DNA of 64,000 bases from Dehalococcoidia bacterium (GTDB lineage: Bacteria; Chloroflexota; Dehalococcoidia; Lucifugimonadales; JADFKI01): positions 364,598-428,597 of the forward strand of contig OZ241999.1 of NCBI GenBank assembly GCA_965204605.1. Reading direction: 5' to 3'. Each line of letters opens with the position of its first letter. Position 1 is the first letter of the stretch. This document shows, piece by piece, positions 18,992 through 56,050 of the stretch. A program made the position numbers and the translations under genes. The notes beneath the pieces are model-generated. The model was not told the DNA's origin. It did no database searches and was given only the letters and a program-made list of their open reading frames with translations.

Positions 18992-21900
18992 CTAGGGCGA
19001 CGATTCGGTTCTGATGCCTACGCGGGCGTAGTCGGTTTCGCCGCCGGTCGTAACCGCAAGAACGCGGTAGATGTATCGCGTGGATGGCTGGATGCCGTTG
19101 GTGTCCGTGTAGGAAGTAACGCTTGCCCCAACATTTATGGGATCGTCGAAGTCCTCACCCTGCACGCGGCGGTATATCTGATAGCCGGTTACGGTGGTGG
19201 TTACATCTGCGTTCCACGCATCCCATGCCAGCGAAATGCTGTTGTGCGTAGCGGTGGCGCGCAGGTTTTCGGGAGCTTCCAGGCTGCCCGGCGTGGGCGT
19301 CAGCGTGGGTGTGTGCGTGCGCGTAGCCGTAGGCGTCCACGTCGGGGTAGGCGTGAGCGTGGGCGTCCATGTGGGCGTGGGCGTATGCGTGCGCGTGGGG
19401 GTAGCCGTCGCCGTGCCTGTAGGCGTCGCCGTTGCCGTGCGAGTTGCGGTTGGCGTGGCTGTGGCCGTGCCCGTTGCGGTAGCCGTGCGCGTGGGCGTTG
19501 CGGTGGCTGTAGGCGTCGCTGTGGCTGTGCGTGTAGGCGTGCCGGTGTGCGTGGCTGTGGCCGTAGCCGTCGGCGTGGGCGTGCCGGTATGCGTGGCAGT
19601 TGCCGTTGCAGTGGCGGTAGCCGTCGGAGTAGGTGTGCCGGTATGCGTAGCCGTTGCAGTGGCGGTAGCCGTCGGAGTGGGCGTGTGAGTGCGCGTTGGC
19701 GTGGCGGTTGCCGTAGCCGTGGCTGTGCGTGTAGGCGTAGCAGTAGGCGGCACCGGCGTGTCTGTCGGCGTTGGCGTTGGCGTGCCGGTATGCGTGGCCG
19801 TAGCCGTGGCTGTGCGTGTAGGCGTAGCAGTAGGCGGCACCGGCGTGTCTGTCGGCGTGGGTGTTGGTGTGCCGGTATGCGTGGCCGTTGCCGTCGCTGT
19901 GCGTGTAGGCGTAGCAGTAGGCGGCACCGGCGTGTTTGTAGGCGTGGGCGTAGGTGTGCCGGTATGCGTGGCGGTAGCCGTTGCCGTGGCGGTTGCTGTA
20001 GGCGTGGGCGTGCCGGTGTGCGTAGCGGTAGCCGTTGCTGTAGCGGTAGCCGTCGGAGTGGGCGTGCCGGTGTGCGTGGCAGTAGCGGTAGCCGTTGGTG
20101 TGGGTGTGCCGGTATGCGTAGCGGTGGCCGTAGCTGTTGGTGTAGGCGTGCCGGTGTGCGTGGCCGTTGCCGTAGCCGTCGGAGTGGCCGTACCTGTATG
20201 CGTGGCGGTTGCCGTTGCTGTCGGCGTGGGCGTGCCAGTGTGCGTAGCAGTGGCGGTTGCCGTGGCTGTGGGTGTAGCAGTAGGCGGCACCGGCGTGTCT
20301 GTCGGCGTGGGCGTGTGAGTGCGCGTAGGCGTGGCGGTAGCAGTTGCCGTCGCAGTGGCGGTAGCCGTCGCCGTTGGTGTAGGGGTGCCGGTATGTGTAG
20401 CGGTTGCCGTTGCTGTCGGCGTCGCCGTGGCAGTATGCGTAGCCGTCGGCGTGGCGGTTGCCGTCGCGGTGGCTGTAGGTGTTGCCGTCGCCGTGGGCGT
20501 ATGCGTTGCCGTCGCGGTGGCGGTGTGCGTAGCGGTTGCCGTGGGGGTGGGCGTTGCCGTGGCTGTATGCGTCGCCGTTGCCGTGGCTGTATGCGTTGCT
20601 GTCGCGGTGGCAGTGTGCGTAGCGGTTGCCGTCGCCGTGGGAGTTGCCGTCGCCGTCGCGGTGGGCGTCCCCGTTGCCGTGGGCGTGTGTGTCTCCGTCG
20701 GCGTTGCCGTCGCTGTGGGCGTATCTGTGGACGTCGGAGTCGCGGTAGGCGTATGCGTCTCCGTGGGCGTTGCGGTTATCGTGGGCGTGAATGTAGCCGT
20801 CGGCGTTGCGCTTGGCGTGGGCGTGGCTAGTATCGGTGGGCCTTCCGCAACCGGGGGATTTTCCACAATCAAGACCTGCGTGGGCGTCGCCGTGGGGGCG
20901 GGCCGGGGCGTTGATGTAGGCGCAATGGTGGGCGTGGGCGTCGGCGTGGGAGCCGGCGGACGCGTTGCCGTAGGCGTTGCGGTGGGCGCTGTTGTGGGCG
21001 TTGGCGTGTAGGTAGCCGTATGCGTTGCCGTAGCCGTCGGCGTGGCCGTTGCTGTAGAGGTTGCCGTCGGCGTGGCGGTTGCCGTAGCAGTTGCCGTCGG
21101 TGTAGGCGTGGCCGTAGCAGTTGCCGTCGGTGTAGGCGTGGCCGTAGCCGTCGGGGTGGCGGTTGCCGTAGCGGTAGCAGTGGGCGTAGCCGTCGGTGTA
21201 GGCGTGCCGGTAGGCGTAGCGGTAGCCGTTGGAGACGGCGTGTGAGTGCGCGTCGGCGTGGCGGTTGCCGTGCGCGTCAAGGTTGCCGTGGGCGTCGGCG
21301 TGGGGGCGTTGTTGCTGACGAGGTTGTTCGTGTTTATATTCGCGGCCTGAGAGAACGCCGCGGTCACTTCGGTAGGCTCCTGCGTCGCTGTGGGCGCGGG
21401 CGTGGAAGACGCCGTGGCCGTGGGCGTTGTTGTGGACGTGGGGGGGACCACCACCGTGTTCGTGGGAACAACCGGCGCCTGCGTGGGCTCTTCAACAACC
21501 TCGTCGTCCTCGTCTTCATCATCCTCGTCATCGCCGCCGCTATTCCGCGCCGATGTAACGGCGGTGGACGTGGCCTCGCGAACAAAGGGCGTGGCGGTGG
21601 CGGTAGCCGTCCATGTAGCGGTGGGGACGCGCGTGGGCCAAGCGGTAGCCGTAGATTCGGGCGACGCCGTTTCGGTTGGCTGGGGGGAAGGCGTAGCCGT
21701 AGCAGGTTCGGCCGTCGAAGTTTCGGTTGGCGTGGGGGAAGGCGCAACCGTGGGTTCGGCGGTCGGAGCTTCGGTTGGGATGATGAGCGGCGTGGCGGTG
21801 GGCGTCGCCAGGGTTTCCCTGGAAAGGGGACGCTCTACGGCGGTCTCAGTGGGCGCAAGCGCAACCACCGGCGTGGGCGGTGGCGGCGGGGGGGACGGCA

Positions 21901-48124: not shown

Positions 48125-50182
48125 CTAAATAGCCAACACGCCATCAGGCGCGGGCTCGTAGTTGTCGAACTCCATTGTGTAGCCGGCGCGCCCCTGCGTC
48201 AGCGAGCGTATGGCGCTGGCGTAGCCGAAGCTTTCGCCCAGCGGTATGGACGCGTTCACCACTTGGATTTCGCCCTGCCCCTCTATATTGCGAATAGCGG
48301 CGCGCCGACGTCCCAAATCGCCCAGCACTTCGCCCAAAAACTCGCCCGGAGTTACAACCTCCAGGCTCATAATGGGCTCCAGCAGTACCGGACGCGCCTT
48401 GTTCACGGCGTCTTTCGCCGCCATAGATCCCGCAATCTGGAAGGACACCTGCGACGAATCCACTTCATGCGAACTGCCGTCGATCAGCGTAATCTTCATA
48501 TCGATGAGCGGAAAGCCCGACAGCGGCCCCGTGTTCAGCGCCTCGCGTATTCCCGACTGCGCCGCCGGTATGAACTCGCGCGGGATTGCGCCGCCCGTAA
48601 TCTTGTCCTCGATCTGGATGCCGGAGCCGCGCTCGCCCGGCTCCACTTGCAGCACAACATGCCCGAACTGGCCGTGTCCGCCCGTCTGCCGCACAAACCG
48701 TCCCACGCCTTCCGTTGATCTGCGAATGGTTTCGCGATAGGCGACGCGCGGTTTGCCCACATTCCCCTCGACCTTGAACTCGCGCTTCATCCTGTCCACC
48801 AGAATTTCCAGGTGAAGTTCGCCCATCCCGGACATAATCGTCTGTCCGGTCTCGTCGTCGTAGTTGATCTTGAATGTGGGATCTTCGTCCGAGAGCTTCA
48901 CCAGCGCGTCCGAAAGCTTGTCTTGGTCGGCGCGCGAGCGCGGTTCCACCGCAACCGATATGACCGGTTCGGGGAACTTGATGCTCTCCAAAACTATCTG
49001 GCTGTCTTGGGCGCAAATCGTGTCCCCGGTTGCGGTGTCTTTCAGCCCCACCGCCGCCGCTATCTGCCCGGCATACACCATCGGCACATCTTCGCGATGC
49101 TGCGCGTGCATCTGCACGATGCGCCCAAGCCGTTCCCGCCGCCGCTTCGTGGAGTTATAGATCGACGCCCCCGCTTCCGCCGTCCCCGAATAGACGCGGA
49201 AATACACCAAGCGTCCAATATACGGGTCTGATACGGTCTTGAATACAAGCGCTGAGAAGGGTTCGGAGGGATCGGGGTGGCGGGTAATCTCTTCGTCTGA
49301 GGCATGGGCAGTTCCGGTAACGGGCGGCACATCGAGCGGTGAGGGCAGATAATCGCAAATAGCGTCTATAAGCGGCTGCACGCCCTTAGTTCGCAGCGCA
49401 GTCCCGCAGAACACCGGCACTATCTGATAACCGATAGTCGCCTTTCGCAGCGCATCCTTGATTTCCTGATTGCCTATCTCTTCCTCTTCGATGTACTTCA
49501 TCAGAAGCTCATCGTCGGTTTCGGCAATCTTCTCAATCATCTGGTCGCGGTATGTGAGAAAATCTTCGAAGAGTTCCTCAGGCACAGGACCTTCCCTAGG
49601 CGTGTCCACGCCCTCGGTCGCCCATGTCCACGACTTGCCCTCGATCAGATCGATAACGCCCGTAAAGGCGTCTTCCTGCCCGATGGGTATCTGAACCGCT
49701 ATCGGGTTGGCTTTCAACCGATGCGATATTGTGTCTATAGTGCGGTGAAAATCGGCGCCCACGCGATCCATCTTGTTCACAAAGCAGATGCGCGGCACAT
49801 TGTACTTGTCCGCCTGCCGCCACACCGTCTCGGACTGCGGCTGCACGCCCGCCACCGCATCGAACACCACCACGCCGCCATCCAAAATGCGCAAGCTGCG
49901 CTCCACCTCGGCGGTAAAGTCCACATGCCCCGGCGTGTCTATGATGTTGATGGCGTAGTCGTTCCACTCCGCGGTCGTGGCAGCCGAAGTAATCGTAATG
50001 CCGCGCTCGCGTTCCTGCGCCATCCAGTCCATCGCCGTCGTGCCGTCATCCACGCCGCCAATCTTGTGGATGCGCCCCGTGAAATACAGCACGCGCTCAG
50101 TCACCGTCGTCTTGCCGGCGTCGATATGAGCGATGAACCCTATATTCCGTGTCTTTTCCAAGTCTTGCAGAGTCGCAGGCAT
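48125..50182 (-). CDS. fusA: Translation elongation factor G
   Basis: 685 aa with [32 protein letters not shown] and the C-terminal domains. Downstream of rpsL-rpsG. Confidence 0.96.
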
Positions 50183-50368
50183 GCCTATATTCCTGATGCC
50201 CTAATCGGCATTGACGCGCTTCCGTTTCGGCGCATTGCCCCGCATCCCGTCCGCCAAACCCCGCCTTTGCGTGTATCCCTATCCCTATATTGGAAACTAT
50301 CCGAAACTTTCGTCCAATGCCGCTTGAATGTTGTCTTATGTAGATTGCGCATCGCCGCCGCCCTCAGC

Positions 50369-50839
50369 CTACCAGCGATAGTGAGCGAATGCGCGGTTCG
50401 CCTCCGCCATTCGATGCGCCTCTTCCCTGCGCCGCACCGCCGGACCCTGATTGCGCGCCGCTTCCAGAAGTTGAATAGCGAGGCTTTCGTGCATAGGCCG
50501 GCTGCCCCGCTGCCGCGCCGCCGTGATGATCCAGCGCATCGACAGCGCCATCCGCCGCGTCGGCCTGACTTCCGTCGGCACCTGATAAGTGGCGCCCCCG
50601 ACCCGCCGCGACTTCACCTCAAGCAACGGCGTTGCGTTGCGAAGCGCCTGCTGAAAGACCTCCAGCCCCGGACGGTTCGCTTCCTGCTCCACCATATCCA
50701 GCGCCTTATACACAATTCGCTGCGCGGTAGTCTTCTTGCCGCTCCACATCACCCGATTGATGAACTGGCTCAGCTCCACGCTGCCGTACTTAATGTCCGG
50801 CGGCGGGATTCTCACTTCAGCCCTTCTGCGACGCGCCAT
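50369..50839 (-). CDS. rpsG: 30S ribosomal protein S7
   Basis: MARRRRAE.R....D.KY.S.....FIN..M..GKK..A..IVY.A ... ends AHYRW. Confidence 0.95.
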   Translation of the reverse strand: MARRRRAEVRIPPPDIKYGSVELSQFINRVMWSGKKTTAQRIVYKALDMVEQEANRPGLEVFQQALRNATPLLEVKSRRVGGATYQVPTEVRPTRRMALSMRWIITAARQRGSRPMHESLAIQLLEAARNQGPAVRRREEAHRMAEANRAFAHYRW

Positions 50840-50973
50840 AAATCCTATCTCTCTTGTCCTGTGATGCTTGCCTTATGCAAATGTACGCTCCCCTGCAATG
50901 AAGAGGGGAGCAACCGGCGAATCTCTTCAGTTCGTTGCCCTTGCGCGAATATCGGCAAGCGCTTTATGGGGCG

Positions 50974-51384
50974 CTAATTTCGTTTGCTGCCGTACTTGCT
51001 GCGCCCGCGCTTGCGCCCGTCCACGCCCGAAGTGTCCAGCGCGCCGCGCACCACATGGTAGCGTACGCCCGGCAGATCCTTCACGCGCCCGCCGCGTATC
51101 AGCACAACCGAGTGTTCCTGCAGATTATGCCCTTCGCCCGGAATGTACGCCGTAACCTCCATCCCGTTAGTCAGCCGCACGCGCGCCACCTTGCGAAGCG
51201 CCGAATTCGGCTTCTTGGGCGTCTGCGTCCGAACCTGCGTGCAAACCCCGCGCTTCTGAGGCGAACCGGCATCGCGGCGTCCGCGATTGCGAAGCGAATT
51301 GAACGAAAACCGCAACGCAGGCGCCTTGTCCTTCTTTCGCTTCTGCTTCCTGCCCTTCCGCACCAGCTGATTCACCGTAGGCAT
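50974..51384 (-). CDS. rpsL: 30S ribosomal protein S12
   Basis: [13 protein letters not shown] from ATG 51384, plus [63 protein letters not shown]. Confidence 0.96.
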
Positions 51385-51504
51385 ACTTCTACCCCGTTCA
51401 CTCCATTGGAAACACGATGCGCCAAGCGCGCAAAGAAACAAAGTCGTAGCAGACAAACATTTTACATTCAGTATTAAACTAATGTCAACTATTATGCGCA
51501 AACC

Positions 51505-51612
51505 GGTATTCTCACACTGCAGGGTTTATCAGTTTGAAATCTTCTAGGAAGCCCTGCATTGGCGAATACTTCGCTGTCCATACACCCAATACCACTTCAG
51601 AGTGAGAATACC
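51505..51612. mobile_element. MITE derived from the IS1-family element at 55210..56034
   Basis: 108-bp element. The left end is GGTATTCTCACACTGCAGG. The reverse complement of the right end is GGTATTCTCACTCTGAAGTGGTATT, which matches the IS left inverted repeat (GGTATTCTCACTCTTAAGTGGTATT) at 24 of 25 positions. No coding capacity and no clear target-site duplication. Confidence 0.65.
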
Positions 51613-51828
51613 GAGCCGCAGCAGTATGAGCATTGCATATCGTCGCGATAGACTCGTTGCATCGGGGAGAGCTTTACTATGGATGATTTAGGCGTCAATT
51701 TCAACCCAATTATGTCACGCTTACACTTCACGTGATGGGAATATCCATTAGACTTTTAGGCTTGCGTATCGGCGCTACGGCGGGTATTCTATTGAAATCG
51801 GGGATTTAGAGAAAAGCGCGCCGCCGCT

Positions 51829-52272
51829 TTGGAGCAGACTGTCGCCGTGAATACGCCGTCAAGACCGGATATGATTTCCGTCCTGGAAGATCAGGGCTAT
51901 CGCGTTACCGCGCCGCGCCGCAATATCGTGAGCCTGCTTGACCGCAAAGAGGGCGGCTTCACCGCCGAAGAGATAGCCTATGAACTGCCCAAGGTGGGCA
52001 GGGCGACGGTGTATCGCACTATCAAACTGCTGGTGGATGCCGGGGTTGTGTGCAAGGTGGCGTTGCCGGACGGCACGCCGAAGTACAGCCTTGCGCGCAT
52101 TGAGCATCATCATCATACGGTCTGCGTGAACTGCGGCAATGTGGGCGAGTTCAGCGCCGCCACCATTGAGCGGCTGATTCGTTCCATCGGCAAAGATATG
52201 GCGGGCGAGATTGTGGGGCATCGGATGGAGTTTCATATCATTTGCGAGGGATGCGCCGACGCGCGCAAGTGA
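51829..52272 (+). CDS. zur: Fur-family metalloregulator, probably Zur
   Basis: Winged helix (G.R.T..R..I...L......FTAEEI...L.....ATVYRT..LL...G.V), HHHH.V.C..CG ... C..C metal sites. Adjacent to znuA/znuB. The start is uncertain (TTG 51829, or downstream GTG/ATG 51871). Confidence 0.8.
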   Translation: MEQTVAVNTPSRPDMISVLEDQGYRVTAPRRNIVSLLDRKEGGFTAEEIAYELPKVGRATVYRTIKLLVDAGVVCKVALPDGTPKYSLARIEHHHHTVCVNCGNVGEFSAATIERLIRSIGKDMAGEIVGHRMEFHIICEGCADARK

Positions 52273-52620
52273 ACTGCGCGGCATTTCCCGAAAGATCGAT
52301 GGCTTTATCGGATATGCCGACGCCTGACATTGAACTGTGCTGCATTCCCACAAGATCGACGGCTTTGCGGATGCGCCGACGTCCGCGATTGAACTGCCCA
52401 GCATTTCCACAAGATCGACGGCTTGACGGATGCGCCGACGTCCGCGAATGAACTGCCTAGCATTCCCACAAGAATGACGGCTTTGGCGGGTGCATCGACG
52501 TCCGCGATTAAACTGCCCGGCGTTCTCGCAATATCGAGGGCTTTGGCGGATGCGCCGACGTCTGCAAGCGAACTGCCCAGCATTCCCGCAAGATCGACGG
52601 CATCGGCTTAGGCGCCGCTC
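52270..52620. repeat. Array of six ~60-bp head-to-tail tandem repeats (non-coding, not CRISPR)
   Basis: Unit starts are 52270, 52331, 52390, 52449, 52509 and 52569 (periods 61/59/59/60/60). Approximate consensus: TGAACTGCCCAGCATTCCCACAAGATCGACGGCTTTGCGGATGCGCCGACGTCCGCGAT. Most units carry GCGGA-N10-TCCGC. Confidence 0.9.
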
Positions 52621-52637
52621 ACAGATTAACCCGCGCG

Positions 52638-53468
52638 CTATGCCATCCTGCGCTTGAATGCGGCGGCTAGGATGAACAGCGCGGTTGCTACCAGCGTCAT
52701 TGCCGGGCCTGAGGGCAGGTTTAGGTAGAACGACATGTACAGCCCGCATACCGCCGATAGCGCTCCGATGCAAGCGCCGGCGGCCATTGCGGAGGCGAAT
52801 CGGCGCACCAGCAGGAACGCCGTCGCCGCGGGTATTATCAGCATTCCTACGACCAGCACAAGCCCTACCGCCTGCAGCGTAATGACGATGATTATCGCCA
52901 GCAGCGCCAGCAGCAGGTAGTCCAGCATGCGCGTGGGTATGCCCGCCACTTCTGCGCCCATGCGGTCGAAGCTGACGAATACGAGCTCTTTGTGGAAGAG
53001 ATACAGCGCCGCGAACACGGCGGCGGCGAGCGACGCGGTGATATAGACGTCGGTCATGGACACGCCGAGGACCTGTCCCAGCAGCACGCTTTCCAGGTCT
53101 AGGGTTATGCCGTCCGCCGCTGATAAGAGCGCCAAGCCGAGCGCGAACATTCCCGCGAACAGGATGCCGATGCCGATGTCTTCGGATAGGTTGGTGCGGT
53201 GGGTTAGGTAGCCGATTAGCAGCGCGACCGCTATGCCGGTGACGGCGGCGCCCCAAATGGGCGCTATGCCCAGCAGAAAGGCGATGACCATTCCGGGCAG
53301 AACGGCGTGCGCCATGGCGTCGCCCATAAAGCCGAGTCCGCGCGTAACCACATAGCAGCCCACCGCCGGCGCGATTATGCCCACCAGCATTGTTACCATA
53401 AGGGCGCGCGTCATAAAGCTATACTTAAACGGATCCAGCAGCAAGCCTATGAAATTGCCGTCCATCAT
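52638..53468 (-). CDS. znuB: Metal (Zn/Mn) ABC transporter permease, ABC-3 family
   Basis: 276 aa with about 8 TM helices. Motifs: F..RAL......G......G..VV.RGL.F.GDA..HA.LPG and L......D.......G. Confidence 0.85.
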   Translation of the reverse strand: MMDGNFIGLLLDPFKYSFMTRALMVTMLVGIIAPAVGCYVVTRGLGFMGDAMAHAVLPGMVIAFLLGIAPIWGAAVTGIAVALLIGYLTHRTNLSEDIGIGILFAGMFALGLALLSAADGITLDLESVLLGQVLGVSMTDVYITASLAAAVFAALYLFHKELVFVSFDRMGAEVAGIPTRMLDYLLLALLAIIIVITLQAVGLVLVVGMLIIPAATAFLLVRRFASAMAAGACIGALSAVCGLYMSFYLNLPSGPAMTLVATALFILAAAFKRRMA

Positions 53469-53631
53469 TCGCTCTTTGCGTTTTCAGCGCTTCGCTTTGT
53501 TGCGCCGCCGCCGCGCGCATATGCAGTCTCTATGCAACCGCGCGCGCGGGCTTTCCGACGCTATCAATTGTATCTCAAAGCGCGCCGCCGGTTGCAAGAT
53601 TGCAAAGTTCGGCGACGCTATCGAGAGAGTT

Positions 53632-53659
53632 GCGGATGCGCGGGAGGGCGCGCATCCGC
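53632..53659. other. Perfect 11-bp hairpin in the znuA-znuB spacer (GCGGATGCGCG-ggaggg-CGCGCATCCGC)
   Basis: Arms at 53632..53642 and 53649..53659 with a 6-nt loop. Lies 25 nt downstream of the znuA stop on the transcribed (minus) strand. No U-run follows. Confidence 0.6.
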
Positions 53660-53683
53660 GGGAGGGATGCTTGTTGTGGGCGC

Positions 53684-55114
53684 TTATTGCAGCGCGTCCA
53701 CGATGGTGTTCACGTTGGAGCGCATAAAGCCGAGGTAGGTGTCCGCGCCGCTGCCCGGAGCGCCCAGCGCGCCGCTGTAAAGCGGGGGCGCTATTTTGGC
53801 GTCGGTTTCGTCGGCGACGCGCTCGGATAGGCTGTCGCTGACGGTGGTTTCGGGGAATATGGCGGGGGCGTCCACTTCTCGGATACGCTCGATCAGCTCC
53901 GCGATTTCGCGCGCGCTAGGCTCCACCTCGGTGGTGCCGCCGGGTATGACCGTGCCTACGACCTCGAAGTGGTAGAGCGCTGCGAAATACCCCATGCTAT
54001 CGTGCGATGTAACCAGCAGTCTGCGGTCCTCGGGGATATTCTCTACTTCCTGCTCTATCCATTCGTGCAGCGCGTCCAGTTCGGCGTTGTAGGCGTGGGC
54101 GCTGCTTAGGTAAGCCTGCGCGCCGTTCAGGTCGAGCGTGGCGAGCCGCGCCGATATGTCCGTGACGGCGCGCTTGACGCGCAGCGGGTCGAACCAGAAG
54201 TGCGGGTCTAGCGAACCGTGGTCGTGGCCGGCGTGCGGGTCGGAATGGTCATCGTGGTCGTCGTGACCCTCGTCTTCGTCATGTTCGTCGGCGTGTTCGT
54301 CGTGGTCTTCGTCGTGATCCTCGTCCTCGTCATGCTCGTCGGCATGGTCGTCGTGGTCTTCGTCGTGATCCTCGTCCTCATCGTGTTCGTCGGCGTGATC
54401 TTCGTCGTGATCCTCATCATCGTCGTGTTCGTCGGCGTGTCCGTGAGCATGGCCGGCATGATCGTCGTGGTCGTCGTCCTCCGATTGGAACGGGATCGGA
54501 TTAACGCCTTCGCCCAGCGCGATAACTCTTTCGGGGTCGGCGGCGGCGTTATGGATGAGTTCTTCGAGCCAGGACGCTTCCAGATGCAAGCCCATGCTGA
54601 ATATGAGGTCGGCTTCGGCTACCCTGACGACGTCCTGCGCGCCGGGGCGGTAGGTGTGGGGATCGGCGCCTGCGCCAAGCATGCTGAACACTTCCACGCG
54701 GTCGCCGCCCACGACATTCACCCAGTCGGCTATGATGCTGGTGGTGGTTACGATGCTCAGGGGTTCTGCCGGCTCGGTCATTGCCATGGCGGGCGCTACT
54801 GTCGCGGCGGGGCGGCGGACGGGCGCTGCGGTGGGTCGGGCCGACGCTGCGGCGGGCTGAGCGGCAGGAGCGGGGGCAGCCGGCATAGCTGCGGGCGCTG
54901 CGGGTTGAGCGGGCGCCGGAGCGGCCGGCGGGATTGGGGTTGCGACGGGCTGAGCGGGCGCGGACTGCTGAACGGCGGGGGCAACGGACTGCGCCGGCGC
55001 TGCGGGCGTCGGGGTTGACGAGCAGCCTATCAGCGCTACGGCGGCAAGGGCAAGCGTCAACGCTATCAATATAGCGGGCATGCCGCCTATCCCAAGGTTT
55101 AGTTTGGTTCGCAA
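53684..55114 (-). CDS. znuA: Zinc ABC transporter substrate-binding lipoprotein ZnuA with giant His/Asp/Glu-rich loop
   Basis: TTG 55114 follows an AGGAG RBS. Lipobox LIGCSS, then an Ala/Pro-rich linker and the cluster-9 SBP fold (DPH.Y.P...D......ADL.......LE.W ... DPH.W.DP). The loop of about 90 aa is DDDHDDHAGHAHGHADEHDDDEDHDEDHADEHDEDEDHDEDHDDHADEHDEDEDHDEDHDEHADEHDEDEGHDDHDDHSDPHAGHDHG. Confidence 0.85.
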   Translation of the reverse strand: MRTKLNLGIGGMPAILIALTLALAAVALIGCSSTPTPAAPAQSVAPAVQQSAPAQPVATPIPPAAPAPAQPAAPAAMPAAPAPAAQPAAASARPTAAPVRRPAATVAPAMAMTEPAEPLSIVTTTSIIADWVNVVGGDRVEVFSMLGAGADPHTYRPGAQDVVRVAEADLIFSMGLHLEASWLEELIHNAAADPERVIALGEGVNPIPFQSEDDDHDDHAGHAHGHADEHDDDEDHDEDHADEHDEDEDHDEDHDDHADEHDEDEDHDEDHDEHADEHDEDEGHDDHDDHSDPHAGHDHGSLDPHFWFDPLRVKRAVTDISARLATLDLNGAQAYLSSAHAYNAELDALHEWIEQEVENIPEDRRLLVTSHDSMGYFAALYHFEVVGTVIPGGTTEVEPSAREIAELIERIREVDAPAIFPETTVSDSLSERVADETDAKIAPPLYSGALGAPGSGADTYLGFMRSNVNTIVDALQ

Positions 55115-55222
55115 TGTGTATTTCTCCTAATCAATACTTCGTATCAATAAATCCAAGAGGGCATTGTAATACAAGGTATCAATATAAGTCAACATTTGAT
55201 TTGAAAAATGGTATTCTCACTC

Positions 55223-55700
55223 TTAAGTGGTATTGAGATTGTGCGCAAACACCGGCGCAAACAGATTCACCAGCATATCCACGCTCTTTGCGCATCCCAT
55301 TGTCCGACGCGCTAACCGACTCAACTTCCCGCGCAGCATCGAATGCAACCCTTCGTTCCAGTTCACCGCGCCGCACTTCCCAACCACATGCTTATTGACC
55401 GGCAAAGCGCCATACACTCCGTAAGCGTCAGTCTCGTAGCTCGCCGCATCGCCAGCCGCTCCAACAATCGCAAGAATGTGGCCTCGTCCCTGCCGCCCGC
55501 ATCAAAGTCTATCCACCTGCTCCCATCGCGCTCTTCCATCGCCGCCGTTCACACCCACACGCTGTTGCGCTTTTCTTTGCGCCTACCGTCCACATATGTC
55601 CACATTCGTCAAACGCTATGGTAGATGCAACGATTGTCGTAGAGCTGCCACTCGCGCGCCTAGCGCTCAATGCGCGCATCCGTTCACGCGCGACTTCCCC
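55223..55700 (-). pseudogene. insB: IS1 InsB-like transposase remnant (several frame disruptions)
   Basis: My manual three-frame reading finds InsB-like pieces in different frames: FDECGHMWTVGAKK / RNSVWV(TGA)TA..EERDGSRWIDFDAGGRDEATFLRLLERL / DAASYETDAYGVYGALPVNKHVVGKCGAVNWNEGLHSMLRGKLSRLARRTMGCAKSV. This implies more breaks than the single programmed -1 shift of IS1. Confidence 0.6.
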
Positions 55701-55968
55701 CCTTTCCGAGCCAGCGGCTCACCGTAGCAACACTTGCGCCCACTACGCGCGCCGCATCCGACATGCTCGCGCCCTCTATACACATCTGAACCGCTTGCCG
55801 TTTGACTTGTTCCGGGAAGCGCGGCTGCTCGGCGTCCGCCGTGTACTTCCTCTTGCAGTCACCGCACTTGTACACTTGCCGCCCGCGTGTGTGTCCGTCT
55901 TTGGGCATCCAATTGGAGCCGCAGCGTCGGCATCTGATGTCTTGTCGATATACCCTTTCGCGCGCCAT
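55684..55968 (-). CDS. insA: IS1 InsA-like protein (zinc finger + HTH)
   Basis: 94 aa with CRRCGS........G......YKCGDCKRKY (zinc finger) and a C-terminal HTH (MSDAARVVGASVATVSRWL). Confidence 0.7.
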   Translation of the reverse strand: MARERVYRQDIRCRRCGSNWMPKDGHTRGRQVYKCGDCKRKYTADAEQPRFPEQVKRQAVQMCIEGASMSDAARVVGASVATVSRWLGKGGSRA

Positions 55969-56050
55969 AGCTCACCCTCCTAGATAGTGGTTTGAGCGCC
56001 ATTATATCTAATACCACTCACCATTAAGAATACCCACAAAGGAGCGTGGA

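What the first reader, a model, noticed from the sequence alone, without database searches (positions are those of the whole stretch)
52270..52620. Unexplained array of six ~60-bp tandem repeats in the convergent zur / znuB intergenic region
The array starts on the zur stop codon. Six head-to-tail units begin at 52270, 52331, 52390, 52449, 52509 and 52569. They share roughly 80-90% identity by eye with the consensus TGAACTGCCCAGCATTCCCACAAGATCGACGGCTTTGCGGATGCGCCGACGTCCGCGAT.

Why the array is neither coding nor CRISPR:
- The period drifts (61/59/59/60/60), so no reading frame is preserved across units. The 60-90-aa ORFs in the track are therefore artefacts.
- The whole unit is conserved, with no unique spacers, so it is not a CRISPR array.

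Most units contain a GCGGA-N10-TCCGC inverted repeat. The GCGGATGCGC core recurs in isolated intergenic hairpins at 53632 and 63314.

Possible functions include a repeated structured-RNA or sRNA array transcribed from zur or znuB read-through, an iteron-like protein-binding array, a multi-terminator or insulator, or an expanded REP-type element. I cannot tell which.
Basis: seen in the sequence. Interest (0 to 1): 0.6.

Follow-up and report, generated by a model that had tools for sequence, protein, structure and literature searches.

The report
Lineage-specific 60-bp intergenic minisatellite
The six ~60-base repeats between the metal-regulator gene and the zinc-transporter gene are real, but they look like an ordinary, fast-changing, non-coding tandem duplication of local DNA and not a regulatory RNA, a protein-docking array or a mobile element.

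Summary
The array is real: Tandem Repeats Finder places it at 52249-52601 (period 60, 5.9 copies, 78% matches). I count six units at 52271-52627, of 61/59/59/60/60/58 nt. It fills almost the whole 365-bp gap between a convergent Fur-family gene and a ZnuB-like permease gene.

The repeat homology begins 22 nt inside the Fur-family gene. The unit is therefore a tandem duplication of the gene's 3' end plus the original short spacer.

- **Distribution:** it occurs at one locus only in this 3.28-Mb Dehalococcoidia genome. It is present in 3 of the 27 genomes of the family, with 6, 5 and 3 units. The next relatives have an unrelated 66-bp spacer.
- **Rate of change:** the flanking genes are 96-98% identical among the three carriers. 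The arrays differ in copy number, and orthologous units are 80-100% identical.
- **Coding:** no reading frame is conserved.
- **RNA:** folding is no better than shuffled sequence (z = 0.5 and 0.04). There are no compensatory pairs, no Rfam match and no terminator.
- **Constraint:** substitutions are spread evenly along the unit.
- **Shared core:** the GCGGATGCGC "core" is a common 10-mer, with 172 copies in the genome.

Best reading: a neutral, lineage-specific minisatellite (VNTR). Interest is low.

The parts
51829..52272 (+). Its last 22 nt plus the stop codon are part of the repeat.
   Evidence: Pfam PF01475 FUR, E = 1.3e-26. NCBIfam Fur, PerR and Zur models all score below their cut-offs. 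ORF.
52249..52272 (+). 'Unit 0': a partial repeat copy inside the coding sequence (GGATGCGCCGACGCGCGCAAGTGA, encoding G-C-A-D-A-R-K-stop). It includes the second Cys codon of the C-terminal CxxC motif.
   Evidence: The TRF array starts at 52249.
52271..52331 (+). Unit 1 (61 nt). It is 100% identical to unit 1 of relative G018 and 80% identical to unit 1 of G010.
52332..52390 (+). Unit 2 (59 nt). It is the only unit with the exact GCGGA-N10-TCCGC inverted repeat.
52391..52449 (+). Unit 3 (59 nt), 88% identical to unit 2. It may reflect a more recent expansion in this lineage.
52450..52509 (+). Unit 4 (60 nt)
52510..52569 (+). Unit 5 (60 nt)
52570..52627 (+). Unit 6 (58 nt), a degenerate terminal unit. 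It is orthologous to the last unit of G018 (89% identity).
52638..53468 (-). ABC-3 family metal permease gene (ZnuB/AztB-like), convergent with the Fur-family gene. Its stop codon lies 10 nt beyond the array.
   Evidence: Pfam PF00950, E = 8.5e-74. NCBIfam AztB, 215 bits.

Best explanation
The array is a neutral, lineage-specific, non-coding minisatellite (a single-locus VNTR).

**Origin (inferred).** A segment of about 60 bp was duplicated in tandem. The segment comprised the last 22 nt of the Fur-family gene, its stop codon and the original short spacer to the convergent permease gene. The duplication probably arose by slippage or illegitimate recombination between a short direct repeat. The evidence for such a repeat is that the array still ends in a degenerate copy of the gene-end motif.

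**Later evolution.** The array then grew, shrank and was partly homogenised by unequal recombination and gene conversion between units. This happened in the common ancestor of three closely related Dehalococcoidia species and afterwards in each of them.

**Function.** It most likely has no sequence-specific function. Its only probable effect is to lengthen the gap between two convergent transcription units from about 66 bp to 365 bp.

**Shown here:** the structure of the array, its single-locus status, its lineage restriction, its copy-number variation, and the absence of coding, RNA-structure, terminator or motif constraint.

**Inferred:** the mechanism of origin and the neutrality.
For: - **Real array.** TRF gives period 60, 5.9 copies and score 396.
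- **Made of local DNA.** The 3' end of the gene aligns as a partial unit. The array ends in a degenerate copy of the same motif, TTAGGCGCCGCTCACAGATT.
- **Single locus.** BLAST and an nhmmer profile find full units only here in the 3.28-Mb genome.
- **Lineage-restricted.** The array is present in 3 of the 27 genomes of the family. G011 and G016 (regulator 85% and 84% identical) and G004 (70%) keep the same convergent gene pair without it. Their spacers are 66 bp in G011 and 175 bp in G004.
- **Variable copy number.** The three carriers have 6, 5 and 3 units, although the flanking genes are 96-98% identical and third codon positions 93-95% identical.
- **Whole-unit turnover.** Edge units are orthologous: G000_u1 = G018_u1 at 100%, G000_u6 ~ G018_u3 at 89%, G010_u2 ~ G018_u2 at 92%. 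Inner units differ in number and carry genome-specific variants: GTCCGCGAT in G000 against GCGCGCAAG in G010, the latter identical to the gene end. This is consistent with unit gain and loss plus partial homogenisation within each genome.
- **No constraint.** Parsimony changes per column fit a uniform spread, with index of dispersion 1.10 and P = 0.29. The longest invariant run is 3 columns, P = 0.41.
- **No conserved frame**.
- **No RNA signal.** Folding z-scores are 0.50 and 0.04. The consensus fold has 0 compensatory pairs. There is no Rfam match.
- **No promoter-like or terminator-like site** inside the array.
- **Contrast within the same locus.** The 11-bp hairpin in the znuA-znuB spacer is perfectly conserved in all three genomes.
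Against: - Units differ by 12-37% from one another, while neutral divergence among the three species is only about 5-7% (third codon positions). The array therefore seems older than the split of the trio. It has persisted despite the deletion bias of bacterial genomes, which could hint at some benefit.
- Most units keep a stop codon at the position of the gene's stop, including a TGA-to-TAA change in unit 4. This could be selection or chance.
A role as a 3'-UTR or a spacer is therefore untested.
- The comparative tests rest on only three arrays and 13-14 related units, so the power to detect weak constraint is limited.
Confidence: 0.75

Rival explanations
1. The array is a functional spacer, insulator or 3'-UTR module. 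It separates two convergent transcription units, the regulator and the transporter it may control. Its copy number tunes read-through, antisense overlap or mRNA stability, making it a regulatory VNTR.
For: The array fills the convergent gap exactly, from the stop codon of the Fur-family gene to 10 nt before the permease stop. No canonical terminator is found for either gene. Extra distance could therefore matter. The array has persisted through the split of three species.
Against: Relatives manage with an unrelated spacer, 66 bp in G011. No structure, terminator or conserved motif lies in the units. Copy number ranges from 3 to 6 among genomes whose flanking genes are almost identical.
Confidence: 0.12
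2. The array is a protein-binding array, iteron-like or a regulator-titration platform. Each unit would carry a site for the Fur-family regulator or another DNA-binding protein.
For: The sites would be regularly spaced direct repeats next to a regulator gene. Short blocks such as GAACTG and GCCGACG are invariant or nearly so across units.
Against: Conservation along the unit is no more uneven than chance. The unit has no palindrome or dyad of the kind Fur-family boxes show (read directly from the sequence). The 60-bp period is far longer than that of iterons. No replication gene or skew extreme lies at the locus (weak skew signal). The array is absent from 24 of the 27 genomes of the family.
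Confidence: 0.04
3. The array is a repeated structured RNA or an sRNA array transcribed from read-through of the flanking genes.
For: A weak GCGGA/TCCGC inverted repeat is present in some units. The position downstream of two genes makes transcription plausible.
Against: The minimum free energy equals that of shuffles on both strands, z = 0.50 and 0.04. The consensus fold is -3.96 kcal/mol with 0 compensatory pairs. The inverted repeat is exact in 1 of 6 units and is replaced by GCGCGC in most G010 and G018 units. There is no Rfam match at E <= 1.
Confidence: 0.04
4. The array is a dispersed mobile or REP/MIRU-type element that expanded here.
For: The 10-mer GCGGATGCGC recurs in hairpins at 53632 and 63303. 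IS1 and MITE remnants flank the locus (earlier notes).
Against: Full units occur only at this locus. The 10-mer is a common genomic word, with 172 copies at rank 301. The unit is made of the local gene end.
Confidence: 0.01
5. The array is coding: a repeat peptide or a read-through extension of the regulator.
For: The period is close to 60 nt, which is 20 codons. One minus-strand frame is open across the whole array in each genome.
Against: Unit lengths of 61/59/59/60/60/58 nt shift the frame. The open frame is a different one in each genome, and the peptide register changes within each array. That open frame in G000 belongs to a 465-aa ORF running out of frame through the permease gene and antisense to the regulator gene. 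There are no Pfam matches.
Confidence: 0.01

Closest known systems
Bacterial VNTR / minisatellite loci, of the kind used for MLVA typing. Reviewed as variable tandem repeats in PMC3899988; that review was seen only as a title and abstract.
   Same: Head-to-tail non-coding repeats with a unit of tens of base pairs. They lie in an intergenic position. Whole-unit copy number differs between close relatives (6, 5 and 3 here). Units are imperfect. Evolution fits slipped-strand mispairing or unequal recombination.
   Different: Variation is seen here between species-level MAGs and not between strains. Units are quite diverged (78% matches), so present-day instability is probably low. The unit includes the last 22 nt and the stop codon of the upstream gene.
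Mycobacterial interspersed repetitive units (MIRU-VNTR). Described as minisatellites, mostly intergenic, in PMC3635867. Described as apparently mobile, inserting at start codons with a coupled ORF, in PMC12548453.
   Same: The unit size class is similar and the position is intergenic. The repeat overlaps the end of a flanking gene. Copy number varies.
   Different: MIRUs are a dispersed family at many loci. They lie between co-oriented genes of operons and carry small ORFs coupled to the downstream gene. This unit is at a single locus, lies between convergent genes and has no conserved ORF.
Intergenic minisatellites between convergent genes noted elsewhere in this scan (earlier AI notes: e1-1505638, e1-3340222, e1-4050844)
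   Same: They are non-coding, copy-number-variable, lineage-restricted tandem arrays that fill 3'-3' gaps. They were judged not to be iterons or RNAs.
   Different: Most of those have 20-22-bp or 84-bp units, and several belong to multi-locus families. This one has a 60-bp unit, sits at a single locus and is visibly derived from the adjoining gene end.

Membership tests
Bacterial minisatellite / VNTR | Head-to-tail tandem copies of a unit of about 10-100 bp | tested here: met
   TRF gives period 60, 5.9 copies and score 396. Six units are delimited.
Bacterial minisatellite / VNTR | Copy number differs between related genomes at the orthologous locus | tested here: met
   G000, G010 and G018 carry 6, 5 and 3 units between the same two genes.
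Bacterial minisatellite / VNTR | Non-coding (for intergenic VNTRs) | tested here: met
   No frame is conserved within or between arrays. There are no Pfam matches.
MIRU-type interspersed minisatellite | The same unit is dispersed at many loci of the genome | tested here: not met
   BLAST and nhmmer find full units only at this locus.
MIRU-type interspersed minisatellite | Lies between co-oriented genes, with an internal ORF coupled to the flanking genes | tested here: not met
   The flanking genes are convergent. No conserved ORF is present.
CRISPR array | Conserved repeats separated by unique spacers of similar length | tested here: not met
   The whole 60-bp unit repeats and there are no unique spacers. 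The genome's real CRISPR array lies elsewhere, at about 2.80 Mb, and has a different repeat.
REP / BIME-type palindromic elements | An imperfect palindrome that forms a stable hairpin, dispersed in many intergenic regions | tested here: not met
   Folding is no more stable than in shuffles. The 5-bp inverted repeat is exact in 1 of 6 units. The unit is not dispersed.
Iterons (plasmid or origin repeats) | Repeats of about 17-22 bp with a conserved protein-binding core, beside a replication initiator gene or an origin | tested here: not met
   The unit is 60 bp. No core is conserved beyond chance. The neighbours are a regulator gene and a permease gene. The GC-skew curve is noisy, so the origin cannot be located.
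Intrinsic terminator (single or multiple) | A G+C-rich stem-loop followed by a U tract | tested here: not met
   The scan finds none in 52240-52660 on either strand.
Any curated RNA family (Rfam 15) | A match to a covariance model | tested here: not met
   cmscan of 50000-56000 at E <= 1 gives no match in the array.

The most novel reading that the evidence does not exclude
The array could be a regulatory VNTR acting on the metal-uptake locus in one of two ways.

1. Its length could set how far convergent transcription from the regulator gene and from the znuAB-like operon overlaps. Unit gain and loss would then tune zinc-uptake expression.
2. Every unit carries a copy of the gene's last codons. 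Recombination between the in-gene partial unit and a downstream unit would therefore rewrite the regulator's C-terminal tail. With unit 1 this would give G-Y-A-D-A-stop in place of G-C-A-D-A-R-K-stop, removing the second Cys of the CxxC zinc site and yielding regulator-null variants at elevated frequency.

Nothing observed requires either route, and nothing strictly excludes them.
Probability: 0.06. Interest if true: 0.45.

Novelty: new member of a known kind. Interest (0 to 1): 0.15.

Why it matters
It matters little. The result removes a candidate "mystery element" from the list by showing that it is a local tandem duplication with no sign of constraint.

Two small points are useful:
1. It is a clear worked example of how a bacterial minisatellite can be born from a gene's 3' end plus its spacer. 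Every unit still carries the gene's last codons and stop.
2. The locus could serve as a copy-number marker to tell apart the three closely related, uncultured Dehalococcoidia species or strains in long-read metagenomes.

If the array did influence convergent transcription of a metal regulator and its transporter, it would be a simple case of a regulatory VNTR in an environmental bacterium. No evidence points that way.

Tried and rejected
- **Dispersed family (REP, MITE or MIRU).** Rejected. BLAST and an nhmmer unit profile find full units only here. The best outside hit is a 34-nt partial match inside an HpcH/HpaI-aldolase-like coding region, which is probably chance.
- **Link to the hairpins at 53632 and 63303 through GCGGATGCGC.** Rejected. 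It is a common 10-mer, with 172 copies at rank 301, and it occurs exactly in only 2 units.
- **Structured RNA.** Rejected.
- **Terminators or promoters in the array.** None found.
- **Coding or read-through extension.** Rejected.
- **Zur box.** I looked for a motif shared by the promoter regions of the regulator and of znuA. I saw GGTATTCT-type words.
- **Origin-linked iterons.** The cumulative GC skew of the genome is noisy, and the locus is not at an extreme. This test is uninformative.
- **More arrays in public data.**
  - An exact-pattern scan of genome contigs found only the two known relatives, both Dehalococcoidia MAGs: OZ241992.1 and CBDBDI010000003.1.
  - Metagenome contigs gave no pattern hit.
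  - A protein-based scan there gave at most 78% identity over a partial match (70% at full length), and none of those loci has an array next to the gene.
- **Literature.** The searches gave only general VNTR and MIRU background.

Full report
**1. The observation**

The window region 51600-53800 contains three genes:
- a Fur-family gene on the + strand (51829-52272; Pfam FUR, E = 1.3e-26);
- a convergent ABC-3 permease gene on the - strand (52638-53468; Pfam ABC-3, E = 8.5e-74; NCBIfam AztB-like);
- upstream of the permease gene on the - strand, a ZnuA/AztC-like binding-protein gene (53684-55114).

Tandem Repeats Finder reports one array in the 365-bp gap, at 52249-52601: period 60, 5.9 copies, 78% matches, score 396. 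Splitting on the GAACTG phase gives six units of 61, 59, 59, 60, 60 and 58 nt at 52271-52627.

Chance is excluded. A 30-mer of the unit is expected 0.00 times in shuffles. A profile HMM of the unit finds six hits at E <= 3e-12 in the whole 3.28-Mb genome, all of them here.

**2.

The repeat does not begin on the stop codon. The last 22 nt of the Fur-family gene plus the TGA (GGATGCGCCGACGCGCGCAAGTGA, encoding G-C-A-D-A-R-K-stop) align with the 3' part of every unit. The array also ends, just before the permease stop codon, in a degenerate copy of the same motif.

The unit is therefore the gene end plus the original spacer. The array is a tandem duplication of local DNA, not an inserted element.

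**3. Distribution**

The unit occurs nowhere else in its own genome. The best outside hit is a 34-nt partial match within a coding region.

Among 40 relatives, and then all 27 genomes of the family, only two other genomes carry it. These are G010 and G018, whose Fur-family proteins are 99% and 97% identical to this one. Their records are named as Dehalococcoidia MAGs.

The next relatives are G011, G016 (85% and 84% protein identity) and G004 (70%). They keep the same convergent gene pair but have an unrelated spacer without repeats, 66 bp in G011 and 175 bp in G004. JGI metagenome contigs hold no pattern match and no close relative.

**4. Evolutionary behaviour**

The three arrays have 6, 5 and 3 units. 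The flanking genes are 96-98% identical in nucleotides, and third codon positions are 93-95% identical.

- **Edge units are orthologous.** G000_u1 = G018_u1 at 100%, G000_u6 ~ G018_u3 at 89% and G010_u2 ~ G018_u2 at 92%.
- **Inner units differ in number and carry genome-specific variants.** G000 inner units share GTCCGCGAT. G010 inner units share GCGCGCAAG, which is identical to the gene end. This is the pattern expected from whole-unit gain and loss with partial homogenisation, that is, concerted evolution.
- **Some orthologous units have diverged faster than neutral sites.** G000_u1 and G010_u1 are 80% identical, well below the 93-95% identity of third codon positions.
- **A control in the same locus behaves differently.** The 11-bp perfect hairpin in the znuA-znuB spacer is identical in all three genomes.

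**5. Tests of function**

- **Coding.** Unit lengths shift the frame. Six-frame translations of the three arrays share no conserved frame or register. The small ORFs have no Pfam match. The one frame that stays open across the G000 array belongs to a 465-aa ORF that runs out of frame through the permease gene and antisense to the regulator gene. It is a typical artefact of 60% G+C DNA.
- **RNA structure.** The minimum free energy of 52240-52660 is -148.5 kcal/mol on the + strand (shuffles -151.6 +/- 6.1, z = 0.50). It is -162.2 kcal/mol on the - strand (shuffles -162.4 +/- 5.8, z = 0.04). The consensus fold of 13 distinct units is -3.96 kcal/mol with no compensatory pair. Rfam gives nothing in the array at E <= 1.
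- **Terminators and promoters.** None lies in the array.
- **Protein-binding core.** Parsimony changes per alignment column are spread as a uniform model predicts, with index of dispersion 1.10 and P = 0.29. The longest invariant run is 3 columns, P = 0.41. No sub-motif is protected.
- **The GCGGA-N10-TCCGC inverted repeat.** It is exact in one unit only and is replaced by GCGCGC in most units of G010 and G018.
- **The GCGGATGCGC word.** It has 172 copies in the genome and ranks 301 of 431,129 10-mers. Its presence in the hairpins at 53632 and 63303 says nothing about kinship.

**6. Genome context of tandem repeats**

A genome-wide TRF run finds 43 arrays with a period of at least 30 and at least 3 copies. 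Most have periods that are multiples of three and at least one open frame, which fits repeat proteins. Several others belong to a CRISPR array near 2.80 Mb. This locus is thus one isolated non-coding minisatellite, not part of a genome-wide family.

**7. Explanation**

The best-supported reading (about 0.75) is a neutral, lineage-specific minisatellite/VNTR. It arose by tandem duplication of the Fur-family gene's 3' end plus the short spacer. It has since been maintained and remodelled by unequal recombination and conversion. Origin and neutrality are inferences. The structural and comparative facts are shown above.

The main reservations:
- The array is older than the split of the three species and has not been deleted.
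- Most units keep a stop codon at the gene-stop position.

The rival with the most room is a non-specific spacer or insulator role between convergent transcription units (about 0.12).

**8. Comparison with known kinds**

The array meets the defining features of a bacterial VNTR/minisatellite. It fails those of several other families (see the membership table):
- MIRU-type interspersed repeats (PMC3635867, PMC12548453), because it is at a single locus, between convergent genes, with no coupled ORF;
- CRISPR;
- REP/BIME;
- iterons;
- intrinsic terminators.

Earlier notes of this scan list many comparable arrays in convergent gaps of other genomes. That agrees with an ordinary mutational origin, but it is not independent evidence.

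**9. Verdict**

The non-coding and not-CRISPR reading is right, and the functional suggestions are unsupported. This is a new member of a known kind, and interest is low.

Noticed in passing
window 51829-52272: NCBIfam does not resolve the 'zur' gene as Zur. The best matches are Fur equivalogs (83.5 bits against a cut-off of 220), and the Zur model scores only 36.5 bits. Calling it Zur rests on its position next to the Znu/Azt-like transporter genes.
   Followed up: partly
window 53632-53659: A perfect 11-bp hairpin (GCGGATGCGCG-GGAGGG-CGCGCATCCGC) lies in the 215-nt spacer between the znuA-like and znuB-like genes. It is identical in G000, G010 and G018, although the spacer as a whole is only 87-95% identical. 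It is the only hairpin of this exact type in the genome. It looks constrained, perhaps as an intra-operon processing or attenuation signal.
   Followed up: partly
window about 51600-51740 (upstream of the Fur-family gene): The 200 nt upstream of the regulator gene are only about 57-63% identical among the three close genomes, while the genes are 96-98% identical. Homology resumes about 90 nt before the start codon. The regulator's promoter region has apparently been remodelled.
   Followed up: no
own genome C1:2027673-2027706 (outside the window): A 34-nt partial match to the repeat unit (nhmmer E = 2e-4) lies inside an HpcH/HpaI-aldolase-like coding region. The same match appears in G010 and G018. 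It is probably chance, but it is the only outside match below E = 0.01.
   Followed up: partly
own genome C1: about 2,799,900-2,812,100 (outside the window): A large CRISPR array with a repeat containing GGTCTATCCCCGCGTGGGCGGGGGAAAC shows up in the genome-wide TRF run as 61-, 122- and 183-nt periods.
   Followed up: no
own genome C1:84714-85022 and C1:453143-453874 (outside the window): Two tandem repeats are 100% identical: a 15-bp unit in 20.6 copies (GGGATGGGCGCAGCC) and a 366-bp unit in 2.0 copies. Perfect identity suggests very recent events or assembly artefacts.
   Followed up: no
window 54258-54439: The His/Asp/Glu-rich loop of the ZnuA-like protein is encoded by 42-51-nt in-frame tandem repeats with 88-90% matches. 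Homologues in relatives carry similar but differently sized repeat tracts (L023 and L024).
   Followed up: no
window 19290-21300: A stretch of about 2 kb holds nested GGCGTG-type tandem repeats with periods from 6 to 90. It is presumably a repeat-protein gene and was not examined.
   Followed up: no
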